A DNA stretch of 64,000 bases from Octopus vulgaris (lineage: Eukaryota): positions 3,844,001 through 3,908,000 of the forward strand of contig OX597842.1 of the NCBI GenBank assembly GCA_951406725.2. The letters run 5' to 3'. Position 1 is the first letter of the stretch. The number at the start of each line of letters is the position of its first letter. Positions 59,008-61,494 of the stretch are shown piece after piece. The notes beneath the pieces are model-generated. The model had not been told where the DNA came from, did no database searches, and was given only the letters and a program-made list of their open reading frames with translations. Position numbers and translations under genes: made by a program.

Positions 59008-59401
59008 GGGCCATCGAAAAAAATGCTATGAAAATGACCGGTCATTTCCTCTATTTACATAATATCGAGGTATCCTTCATTCTTTTGTTGTCTTGCCATT
59101 TCTATCAATATATATATCTATAATATATATATATAATACAAAATGGGACATGAACGCAAAACATCCGGACAACTAGGTGATACAAAAAGGGACAACAAAA
59201 CATCCAGATACAAAGAAAACAAGGACAGGTCATTCGAAGTTTTCTATCTTCAGTCAAGAACCAGATTATCCTCGCAATTTCGGCTGATTATTCTTGAGAA
59301 TGTTCCAATCTGGCCAGCCCCAAGGAAAAACTAAGCTAAGCGCATTAGATTCCTCGGAAGAAAGCAGCGAATGTATACAAAAACAAGGACGGAAAAACGG
59401 C

Positions 59402-59435
<34 letters not shown>

Positions 59436-59629
59436 TAGTTGAATGAATTATCCTAGTATGGATAATTCGGTTAACCGATACCTGGGTAGCAAATTCACGT
59501 CAGAAAACGCGGTTGAAGCTACATGCCAAGGGCAGAGATCACGTGCTTTCGTGTGGAAATTTGTGTGTTTTTTTACTATAAATAAATGAAAGAATGGAAT
59601 CGAACGACGATTTAACAAAATTCCTTTAT

Positions 59630-59710
59630 TCTCGACATATGTTTCGAAGACTGCATATTCCTAATTCCGAAGAAATAAGGGGTGCATTATGCCGCCTTCT
59701 CATCAGGAAA
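59630..59710 (-). ncRNA. Type I hammerhead ribozyme (left arm)
   Basis: Reverse complement of the motif at 59850-59930. Confidence 0.78.
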
Positions 59711-59849
59711 GACAAGGAACTTATGTCAGCATCATGACGAACAAAAATTTTTAGATGACTGCCCACACGGAGTCCATAGCGATAATGAGTGTTTCTTTAA
59801 AGAAACACTCATTATCACTATGGACTTATGCTGACATAAGTTCCTTGTC

Positions 59850-59930
59850 TTTCCTGATGAGAAGGCGGCATAATGCACCCCTTATTCCTTCGGAATTAGG
59901 AATATGCAGTCTTCGAAACATATGTCGAGA
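59850..59930 (+). ncRNA. Type I hammerhead ribozyme (right arm), intact core
   Basis: uuuc CUGAUGA gaaggcggcaua...uaugcagucuuc GAAA cauaug UC gaga. Stem II pairs at 11 of 12 positions and stem III is the palindrome ACAUAUGU. Predicted cleavage after C59926. Confidence 0.8.
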
Positions 59931-59992
59931 ATAAAAGAATTTTGTTAAATCGTCGTTCGACTCCATTCTTTCATTTATATATATATATATAT

Positions 59993-60552
59993 ATCCCAAT
60001 CGTCCCCCTGAAATCGTAACTCCACCATCGAGGAGGCCTTCCGGGTGGTCGTTTCCGCTCGCGTGGGTACCACTCGACAACTGCGCGGGTCCACCGATTA
60101 TTGGTGAGCCGGGTGACGTGTCCAGCCCATCCAAACTTGCTGCGTGTATACTCTGCGATGACATCCCTCACGCCGGACTTCTTTCTGATGACCTCGCTAC
60201 TGATGTGCTCTCTCAACGAGATTCCAAGCATTGACCTTTCCATGGCTCTTTGAGCCGTTACCAGTCTCTGCTCTTCTCTCTTTGTGGTAGCCCATGTTTC
60301 ACTACCATATAACATTGCAGGTAGAACTGTACTGTTGATGAGGTTGGCGAGGGTTGTCCTGTCCAACCTTCCCTTGAGCACATCCCTTATGCCATTAAAC
60401 GCCTTCCATCCGGCCCTTACTCTCCGTGAGATCTCCTTTTCGATATCACTTGTATGAGAAAGGCGCGATCCAGAGAGGAGTGAACAGCGTGCTGTGACCA
60501 GCGGTGTCAAATGGACACCTGGCGGACTGGTCGGTCAAGGTGATCAAGGTGA
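59993..60552. mobile_element. RTE-clade LINE 3' portion with a 5' inversion
   Basis: 59993-60450 (-) encodes EISRRVRAGWKAF...VLPAMLYGSETW...QRAMERSMLGI...WAGHV...RPPGRPPRWW. 60453-60552 (+) continues MRKARSREE to a (tcaaggtga)2 tail. Confidence 0.85.
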
Positions 60553-60567
60553 TATATATATATATCA

Positions 60568-60782
60568 TCTTGACACCGCTGGTCACAGCACGCTGTCCAC
60601 TCCTCTCTGGATCGCGCCTTTCTCATCCACGTGATCCCAATCGTCCTCCTGAAATCGTTACTCCAGCGTCGTGTATATATTAATATATCATCAGAAAGAA
60701 GTCCGGCGTGAGGGATGTCATCGCAGAGTATACACGCAGCAAGTTTAGATGGGTTGGACACGTCACCCGGCTCACCGATATA
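60568..60782. mobile_element. Second, rearranged copy of the same RTE 3' region
   Basis: 60568-60672 (-) encodes RRWSNDFRRTIGITWMRKARSREEWTACCDQRCQ. 60688-60782 (+) encodes IRKKSGVRDVIAEYTRSKFRWVGHVTRLTD. Confidence 0.8.
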
Positions 60783-60786
60783 AACC

Positions 60787-60826
<40 letters not shown>

Positions 60827-60928
60827 GGTTTAAGCAATTGAGATTCAAGTGAGTTTTGTAGCCTTATTAAAGATGTCCTCGTACGAAACAATTGTACCGA
60901 TATATTGATACATTCTTGTTGCTTTTTT

Positions 60929-60965
<37 letters not shown>

Positions 60966-60968
<3 letters not shown>

Positions 60969-61380
60969 GTAGGAAGAAATGGAGCTGAACGAAGATTTAA
61001 CACAATTCCTTTTTATTATTTTCTACGGGCTCCTCGTGAGCGTTTGTCGAAAAGCTTGCTGTGCATTTTGTTGGAGAATTAAGTTCCTGAATTTTCCTGA
61101 AGAGAAGGCTGCAAAATGGACTCCTTATTCAATCCGAATTAGGGACTTTGCAGCCTTCGAAACATATGTAGAAAATAATAAAAAGGAATTTTGTTAAATC
61201 TTCGTTCAGCTCCATTTCTTCCTACACTCAGTATATAAAACTTCAAATTTCCGCACTAAGGCACGGATTTTATGCCCCATGGTCGTAACTTCAACCGTGC
61301 TTTTTCTGTTGTGATTTTTGCTACCCAGGTATCGGTTATCATTTGAATTATCCGTAATAAGATAATTCATTTATCTACTT
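60966..61380 (+). mobile_element. Penelope-like terminal repeat with a short inverted 5' copy
   Basis: 60966-61026 is the reverse complement of 61168-61228. The body is a diverged homolog of 59430-59730 and is flanked by (TA)n. Confidence 0.7.
61091..61176 (+). ncRNA. Type I hammerhead ribozyme, best-formed example
   Basis: auuuuc CUGAAGA gaaggcugcaaa...uuugcagccuuc GAAA cauaug UA gaaaau. Stem I is a perfect 6 bp, stem II a perfect 12 bp, and stem III is ACAUAUGU. Predicted cleavage after A61170. Confidence 0.88.
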
Positions 61381-61383
61381 CAA

Positions 61384-61427
<44 letters not shown>

Positions 61428-61494
61428 GCCATTTTTTCCGTCCTTGTTTTTGTATACATTCGCTGCTTTCTTCCAAGGAATGTAATATATATAT

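What the first reader, a model, noticed from the sequence alone, without database searches (positions are those of the whole stretch)
59850..61176. Covariation between two diverged hammerheads with an unusually long, two-tier stem II
Seen: stem II is gaaggcggcaua/uaugcagucuuc at 59850 and gaaggcugcaaa/uuugcagccuuc at 61091, giving a U-A to A-U compensatory pair and a G-U to G-C change. Both keep a second apical helix (ccuuauuc/gaauuagg). N7 (U versus A) and H17 (C versus A) vary only at positions tolerated by the hammerhead consensus. Inference: structure and catalysis were under selection while these subfamilies diverged.
Basis: partly seen in the sequence, partly recalled or inferred. Interest (0 to 1): 0.72.

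Follow-up and report, generated by a model that had tools for sequence, protein, structure and literature searches.

The report
Long-armed hammerheads of Penelope-like retrotransposons
The two motifs are hammerhead (predicted self-cutting RNA) sequences in cut-off tail ends of two subfamilies of one Penelope-like jumping gene; the jumping gene's lineage has kept the catalytic core unchanged and the unusually long arm paired, but the single base-pair swap that drew attention is weak evidence, and cutting, likely as pairs, is untested.

Summary
The motifs are real: type I hammerhead cores at 59854 and 61097, a third inverted copy at 59706, and a 54-55 nt stem II that Rfam misses. Each is the 3' end of a high-copy Penelope-like element (RT + GIY-YIG, Hydra-like), about 570 nt behind the ORF. 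On a tree of 126 copies the 11 core bases have 0 lineage changes (about 24 expected), while private mutations hit them at the neutral rate. So selection acted on the transposing lineage, not on these dead fragments. The basal stem II covaries as a helix (p 0.001-0.011), but no single pair is significant. The apical tier is conserved in sequence but shows no covariation and holds a U·U mismatch. Relatives in marine metagenomes have spacers of 10-25 nt. This scan has reported the same long-armed class before, on other DNA. New variant of a known kind; cleavage untested.

The parts
59408..59801 (-). 5'-truncated copy of the subfamily A element end: last part of the 3' UTR, hammerhead (core starts at 59706 on the minus strand) and the long extension, ending in (TA)n
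   Evidence: 92% to the 3' end of the long copy L349; core found
59828..59989 (+). inverted short copy of the subfamily A element end, holding motif A, ending about 45 nt past the predicted cut site in (TA)n
   Evidence: 94% to L349; 98% over 148 nt to the minus-strand twin
59841..59853 (+). motif A, 5' strand of the two-tier stem I (Ib 59841-59846, Ia 59850-59853); partner 59927-59939, with an A at 59936 where most copies have G
59854..59860 (+). motif A core CUGAUGA
59861..59914 (+). motif A stem II, 54 nt: basal helix 11 of 12 pairs, internal loop, apical helix 7 of 8 pairs
   Evidence: fold z -2.7
59915..59926 (+). motif A GAA, palindromic stem III ACAUAUGU (59918-59925), predicted cut after C59926
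60969..61026 (-). short inverted piece of the subfamily B end, complementary to the stem I 3' strand of motif B and what follows
   Evidence: 98% over 58 nt; predicted to pair with 61171 onwards
61019..61393 (+). 5'-truncated copy of the subfamily B element end: 3' UTR tail, motif B, long extension, ending in (TA)n
   Evidence: 85-87% to the tandem element L351; same hammerhead as in the ORF-bearing copies L054 and L061-L080
61083..61096 (+). motif B, 5' strand of the two-tier stem I (Ib 61083-61088, Ia 61091-61096); partners 61171-61176 and 61184-61189 around an A-rich loop
61097..61103 (+). motif B core CUGAAGA
61104..61158 (+). motif B stem II, 55 nt: basal helix 12 of 12 pairs, apical helix 7 of 8
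   Evidence: fold z -5.4
61159..61170 (+). motif B GAA, palindromic stem III ACAUAUGU (61162-61169), predicted cut after A61170

Best explanation
Both motifs are type I hammerheads in the 3' UTR / pseudo-LTR of one Hydra-like Penelope-like retrotransposon lineage; the source elements kept the core and the basal stem II under purifying selection, likely because two ribozymes of a tandem transcript pair through the ACAUAUGU palindrome and cut out a unit-length RNA. Shown: the link to an RT + GIY-YIG ORF, the tandem layout with two same-strand motifs 3682 nt apart, lineage-level constraint, helix-level covariation of basal stem II, and a self-complementary loop III across unrelated spacers. Inferred: cleavage; dimer formation; re-ligation to a circle that serves as RT template, which would explain why new copies read through the intact cut site. 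The apical tier is likely a lineage-specific hairpin inserted into loop 2, outside the catalytic core, kept for its sequence (probably a binding site for the element's protein or a folding aid). The copies in this window are dead fragments, predicted to be trapped by their inverted twins.
For: 126 of 140 loci found by the endonuclease alone carry the motif downstream, median 566 nt. ORFs of 804-934 codons with RT and C-terminal GIY-YIG. L351: motif, ATG 263 nt later, ORF, second motif. Lineage changes per site: core 0, stem III 0.33, Ia 0.50, Ib 0.58, apical II 0.75, basal II 0.88; codon positions 0.93 / 0.67 / 2.77; UTR 2.16; Poisson p 5e-11 for the core, 1e-6 basal, 9e-6 apical. Basal stem II: 7 of 12 pairs with changes on both sides among 20 representatives; helix-level p 0.011, and 0.0007-0.0013 with the farther family W included. 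Lineage changes end paired in 16 of 21 cases, private ones in 13 of 38 (p 0.003). Loop III self-complementary in 19 of 20 long motifs when the search did not ask for it; chance 0.147 each. Its centre runs U-A, U-G, C-G. Monomer stem III has pairing probability 0.015-0.12, the 8-bp duplex -7.0 kcal/mol. Dimer cleavage of metazoan PLE hammerheads is reported as low but real (PMC4209133; PMC6765202).
Against: No cleavage or RNA-end data. No single pair passes the phylogeny-aware test (best E 0.10-0.14). Pair 4 is an A·C mismatch in 76 of 126 copies, and subfamily F carries three mismatches in the basal helix. The stricter contrast (pair kept against pair broken, 9:5 versus 11:17) is not significant (p 0.19), and the 16 of 21 count depends on the midpoint root. 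Free folding of motif A does not favour the hammerhead (stem Ia probability 0.02; whole motif z -0.8). 123 of the 126 motif-bearing copies run 40-239 nt past the cut site and none of them stops at it, which fits a ligated circle but also an RNA that is rarely cut. The two partners would be 3.7 kb apart. G10.1-C11.1 is G-U in 46 of 126 copies.
Confidence: 0.7

Rival explanations
1. The hammerhead fold is kept as a structural signal (RT or RNP binding, end formation, translation control) and cuts rarely or never in vivo.
For: Copies read through the cut site. A non-ribozyme stretch just downstream is as constrained as the stems (0.81 per site). Cervera and de la Pena report low in vitro activity and do not exclude other functions; Craig et al. 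raise that hammerheads may merely ride on PLEs.
Against: All 11 core positions are invariant along the lineage while only N7 and H17 vary, and H17 is never G in the 126 copies. This is the pattern catalysis demands (established hammerhead consensus, recalled).
Confidence: 0.17
2. The apical tier is a working part: its invariant UUAUU opens and pairs with the A-rich ARUAA loop of stem I, replacing the loop 1 / loop 2 contact of classical hammerheads or acting as an off switch.
For: UUAUU and A(A/G)UAA occur together in 117 of 126 copies. A to G changes in the loop keep a G-U pair. The apical partner strand is less conserved and the helix breaks in D. In A3 this pairing beats the apical helix (-10.9 versus -7.4 kcal/mol).
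Against: Post hoc. No change on both sides. In 15 of 20 representatives the apical partner binds better, and in B and F types the pairing is no better than 12-18% of random UTR windows.
Confidence: 0.1
3. The long stem and its 'covariation' are neutral: inherited sequence of a young repeat, with chance pair swaps.
For: The single pairs are not significant; long-lived mismatches; the apical tier lacks covariation.
Against: Rates 2.5-3 times below the UTR, a fixed 54-55 nt length over endonuclease identities down to 60-72%, and helix-level covariation.
Confidence: 0.03

Closest known systems
Hammerheads of Hydra-clade Penelope-like elements (Craig et al. 2021, PMC8557442; read: abstract, introduction, sections 11 and 12, passages, File S1 Hydra sheet, File S2)
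   Same: 3' UTR type I hammerhead, short palindromic stem III, single ORF with RT and C-terminal GIY-YIG, DKT and LYRDD motifs, (TA)n targets, inverted 5'-truncated copies.
   Different: The 26 Hydra rows of File S2 have spacers of at most 26 nt by my reading (23 nt in Hydra-1_oBim); 65 motifs near Hydra-type ORFs in metagenomes have 10-25 nt. Here 54-55 nt. The basal helix alone (12 bp) is close to the longest relatives (10-11 bp); the new part is the 30-nt upper tier. The ORF lacks the CxCX5C linker and the unit is 3.7 kb.
Minimal and palindromic-helix-III PLE hammerheads (Cervera and de la Pena 2014, PMC4209133; read: parts 1-2 of 4, passages)
   Same: Dimer-type architecture, place in pseudo-LTRs, opposite-strand pairs 100-700 nt apart, families with compensatory changes, proposed circular template.
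   Different: Helix II of 6-8 bp with a simple loop; no second tier described in what I read.
PLE-X1_sMoe / PLE-X1_sTam hammerheads and Naiad 'HHR_half_core' cases (PMC8557442 File S2 and methods)
   Same: Spacers of about 50 nt (PLE-X1) or core halves 35-50 nt apart (eight Naiads): long stem II is not without precedent in print.
   Different: Other PLE clades, single rows flagged as deviating, no structural or evolutionary test given in what I read.
Non-LTR retrozymes (bioRxiv 10.64898/2026.07.22.740005; read: parts 1-2 of 5)
   Same: Type I hammerheads related to PLE pseudo-LTRs.
   Different: Retrozymes are non-coding tandem units; these motifs belong to a coding element and are dispersed.

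Membership tests
Type I hammerhead ribozyme | CUGANGA ... GAAA ... UH core | tested here: met
   invariant along the lineage
Type I hammerhead ribozyme | three helices, stem I open-ended, G10.1-C11.1 closing stem II | tested here: met
   stem Ia 95% and basal II 87% of cells paired; G-C in both window motifs, G-U in 46 of 126 copies
Type I hammerhead ribozyme | site-specific self-cleavage after H17 | not testable with these tools
   no assay; no run on record as RNA
Type I hammerhead ribozyme | loop 1 / loop 2 tertiary contact of fast hammerheads | tested here: inconclusive
   no short loop 2 at the usual height; candidate UUAUU / ARUAA pairing not distinguishable from chance
Dimer-type PLE hammerhead | short stem III with palindromic loop | tested here: met
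   ACAUAUGU; 19 of 20 long motifs self-complementary
EN+ Penelope-like element | single ORF, RT followed by GIY-YIG endonuclease | tested here: met
   (motifs read by eye and by alignment to homologs; Pfam scan gave 0 families)
EN+ Penelope-like element | pseudo-LTRs from partial tandems, inverted 5'-truncated copies, extension at one end | tested here: met
   L351, L347-L349; two end classes
Hydra clade | DKT motif; no CCHH cysteine pair between GIY and YIG; CxxC and CxH around the conserved E and N | tested here: met
   SDKT, single Cys in IYQC, CALC, CTH against section 11; LYRDD as in Hydra-named proteins of the supplement
Hydra clade | insertion into (TA)n | tested here: met
   123 of 126 copies reach a (TA)4 run 40-239 nt past the cut site
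Hydra clade | CxCX5C linker before the endonuclease | tested here: not met
   absent in L347, replaced by an Asn-rich stretch; present in the three homologs aligned; also absent in subfamily A. Filed as Hydra-like, not as a member.
Hydra clade | RWK motif; length generally under 3 kb | tested here: not met
   RWL; unit 3682 nt
Hydra clade | RT tree position among reference clades | not tested
   no reference set was on hand in the tools

The most novel reading that the evidence does not exclude
A lineage-wide subclass of active dimer hammerheads, tens of thousands of copies in this genome and invisible to Rfam and to the published descriptors, in which an inserted apical domain docks on the stem I loop or binds the element's protein and so sets when the transposon RNA is cut and circularised.
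Probability: 0.12. Interest if true: 0.7.

Novelty: new variant of a known kind. Interest (0 to 1): 0.4.

Why it matters
What PLE hammerheads do is open: Craig et al. call the function unclear and raise that they may be passengers. A ladder of dated subfamilies in one genome gives a direct selection test, and it says that the core is held more tightly than second codon positions of the element's own endonuclease while copies still read through the cut site. That makes the cut-and-circularise model directly testable. The long arm also shows that hammerhead counts miss a large class: 25 of 47 strict motifs in the sampled Mb have spacers of 30 nt or more, roughly 50,000-70,000 in the genome by extrapolation. 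The association itself, the dimer architecture and occasional long spacers are already in print, and these two genomic copies are ordinary transposon debris.

Tried and rejected
Rfam: nothing at gathering score, only hairpin-type noise at E<=10. Pfam: 0 families for two translations. One search used a structure string off by one column; its numbers are void and were redone. In alignment A3 the aligner's gap puts the outer apical pairs out of register, so one search counts only the inner four; I moved the gap. One intended representative (A6) dropped out through a wrong coordinate (20 rows remained); E in A3 is a mutated copy and was replaced by a typical one. R-scape was not available: my test imitates it (G-test with APC, substitutions re-placed on the tree) and has low power with 20 rows; the re-pairing control does not remove all phylogenetic signal. 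Expression: no RNA holder listed; contigs of four runs laid on the motif showed no joints and cannot show ends. Nematis or Neptune identity, my first guess from memory, was dropped when the supplement showed the LYRDD-type proteins under Hydra. No endonuclease was found beside the 30 loci each of two other long-stem families (W and the ACGAU type), so their parent elements are not shown here; family E is linked (52% identity). Lunse et al. (PMC5785218) was not held; I saw only its title. Literature searches for a described long or two-tier stem II found none beyond the cases named; 'long helix II' in PMC13725137 (passages) means 6-8 bp. Supplements of PMC4209133 and of the bioRxiv preprint were not seen and could hold further long variants.

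Full report
Observation. The region holds two plus-strand hammerhead cores, at 59854 (A) and 61097 (B), and a minus-strand twin of A at 59706. The quoted coordinates mark stem I, not stem II. A has a G·A mismatch at basal pair 7, and the apical helix has a U·U mismatch in both. The spacers fold better than shuffles, z -2.7 and -5.4. Rfam does not see the motifs.

What they belong to. Both motifs are high-copy: 2564 and 1420 first-look candidates, the best 40 scored in each. Many occur as inverted pairs ending in (TA)n. Walking upstream from B led to a GIY-YIG-type frame and then to frames with RT and endonuclease. Subfamily A has its own endonuclease, 59-68% identical to B over the C-terminal part. 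Of 140 loci picked by endonuclease similarity (the top 30 of each 150-hit list plus 80 spread down the lists), 126 carry the motif downstream at a median 566 nt. L351 shows the intact layout: motif, ATG 263 nt past the cut site, ORF, second motif, 3682 nt from site to site. The window's pieces map to the last 160-400 nt of such elements: no ORF, dead on arrival. The best named RT homolog is from Argonauta hians (45%), others from corals, a sea cucumber and a bryozoan; the host is likely an octopod (inference). The protein matches the Hydra description of Craig et al. (PMC8557442) in DKT, the endonuclease cysteines and the (TA)n target, but lacks the CxCX5C linker and has RWL for RWK. I file it as a Hydra-like PLE.

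How unusual the arm is. Near Hydra-type ORFs in metagenome contigs, 65 motifs in 51 of 78 loci have spacers of 10-25 nt, none of 30 or more. File S2 of Craig et al. gives at most 26 nt for Hydra rows, but about 50 nt for two spike-moss PLE-X rows flagged as deviating, and the methods note eight Naiad half cores 35-50 nt apart. In 100 stretches of 10 kb taken at round coordinates in this genome, a strict descriptor found 47 motifs, 25 of them with spacers of 30 nt or more, in 20 stretches; shuffles gave 0.6 long motifs per Mb. A few of the 25 look spurious. The density differed between the first 400 kb (18) and the next 600 kb (7), so 50,000-70,000 genome-wide is a rough extrapolation.

Selection. 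I built a tree from endonuclease and UTR of the 126 copies, leaving the ribozyme out, and mapped changes by parsimony. On internal branches the 11 core sites changed 0 times; the UTR rate predicts 23.8 (p 5e-11). On terminal branches they changed 11 times, 1.0 per site, like second codon positions (0.94). So source elements were under selection and inserted copies decay. N7 and H17 changed 3 times on internal branches. Basal stem II (0.88 per site) and the apical tier (0.75) are as constrained as first and second codon positions. A stretch 20-50 nt past the cut site is equally constrained (0.81).

Covariation. Among 20 subfamily representatives, 7 of 12 basal pairs show changes on both sides; 91% of 580 cells pair, above all 500 shuffles and all slid registers (that tool warns that relatedness alone can beat the shuffles). 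Summed over the helix the signal is real: p 0.011 within the clade, p 0.0007-0.0013 with family W anchored by distance from the core (homology of W rests on the core, stem III and a shared downstream motif). The apical helix has p 0.34, stem Ib 0.42, stem Ia 0.08. On the tree, pair 11 goes from U·U (23 copies, subfamily F) to A-U on one side and U-A on the other; pair 5 goes G-C, G-U, A-U on the A side and is G·A in 27 copies; pair 4 is A·C in 76 copies. The one clean double change in the apical tier (C-G to U-A, 17 copies) is followed by U-G and C·A states.

Stem III is a 2-bp stem closing AUAU, predicted to form in 1.5-12% of monomers, but the 8-nt palindrome gives a -7.0 kcal/mol duplex between two molecules. 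With no palindrome asked for, 19 of 20 long motifs had a self-complementary loop (chance 0.147 each; about ten families, not twenty independent events). Stem I has two tiers around an A-rich loop. In a read-through transcript of this window A is predicted to sit in a 148-bp hairpin with its twin, and B loses its stem I 3' strand to 60969-61026, so neither would be expected to cut here.

Mechanism. Established (PMC4209133 parts 1-2; PMC6765202 passages): metazoan PLE hammerheads with short palindromic stem III cut poorly or not at all alone and weakly as dimers, and a ligated circle was proposed as RT template. Inferred here: a tandem transcript brings two motifs together, is cut at both, and the 3.7-kb unit is ligated. 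This fits the copy ends: of 126 copies, 51 end 40-79 nt and 72 end 180-239 nt past the site, none at it, 2 without a (TA)n run and 1 without a site (the 14 loci lacking a near-full motif were not examined). An uncut tandem RNA would give the same ends, so this does not prove cleavage. The upper tier lies beyond the core, where the catalytic consensus sets no requirement (recalled); its constraint points to a binding or folding role. A pairing of its UUAUU with the stem I loop is possible but weak.

Earlier notes. My reading was fixed before I looked. Six notes of this scan, two from this genome, report the same long-armed Hydra-type class; none lies near this place. They are unchecked and add no support.

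Verdict. Real, structured, under lineage-level selection; a new variant of a known kind; cleavage untested. Interest 0.4.

Noticed in passing
L347:1977-4673 (+), L228, L226: The ORF has lost the CxCX5C linker that Craig et al. associate with (TA)n targeting, replaced by about 130 Asn-rich residues, yet copies still insert into (TA)n. This argues that the linker is not needed for that targeting.
   Followed up: partly
window 35664 (-) and 35842 (+): Inverted pair of another long-stem family (W, 59-nt spacer, 1343 candidates) with a C·C / U·U internal loop in the basal helix and the same downstream motif.
   Followed up: partly
window 5925 (-), 42379 (-), 42814 (+): Further long-spacer hammerhead-like cores with palindromic loops.
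   Followed up: no
window 7374 (-), 21790 (+), 41653 (-), 51686 (-), 53863 (+), 63160 (-): Short-stem hammerhead-like cores of the usual PLE type.
   Followed up: no
window about 59965-59975 and 61205-61225: A motif 35-50 nt past the cut site, next to the short element end, is as constrained as the ribozyme stems and is shared with families D, E and W; a candidate end-formation or RT-priming signal.
   Followed up: partly
window 59995-60540 (-) and 60570-60780 (+): Frame of 181 codons resembling the C-terminal part of an RTE-type LINE protein (label recalled, not searched), with an inverted partial copy, between the two hammerhead insertions.
   Followed up: no
window 59340-59405 and 61425-61480: The same unrelated sequence follows the (TA)n end of both the A and the B insertion, in inverted orientation, as if both sit inside one older inverted repeat.
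   Followed up: no
L171:2307-4513: Seven short hammerheads, five in a row spaced about 355 nt apart, a retrozyme-like tandem array with an inverted part.
   Followed up: no
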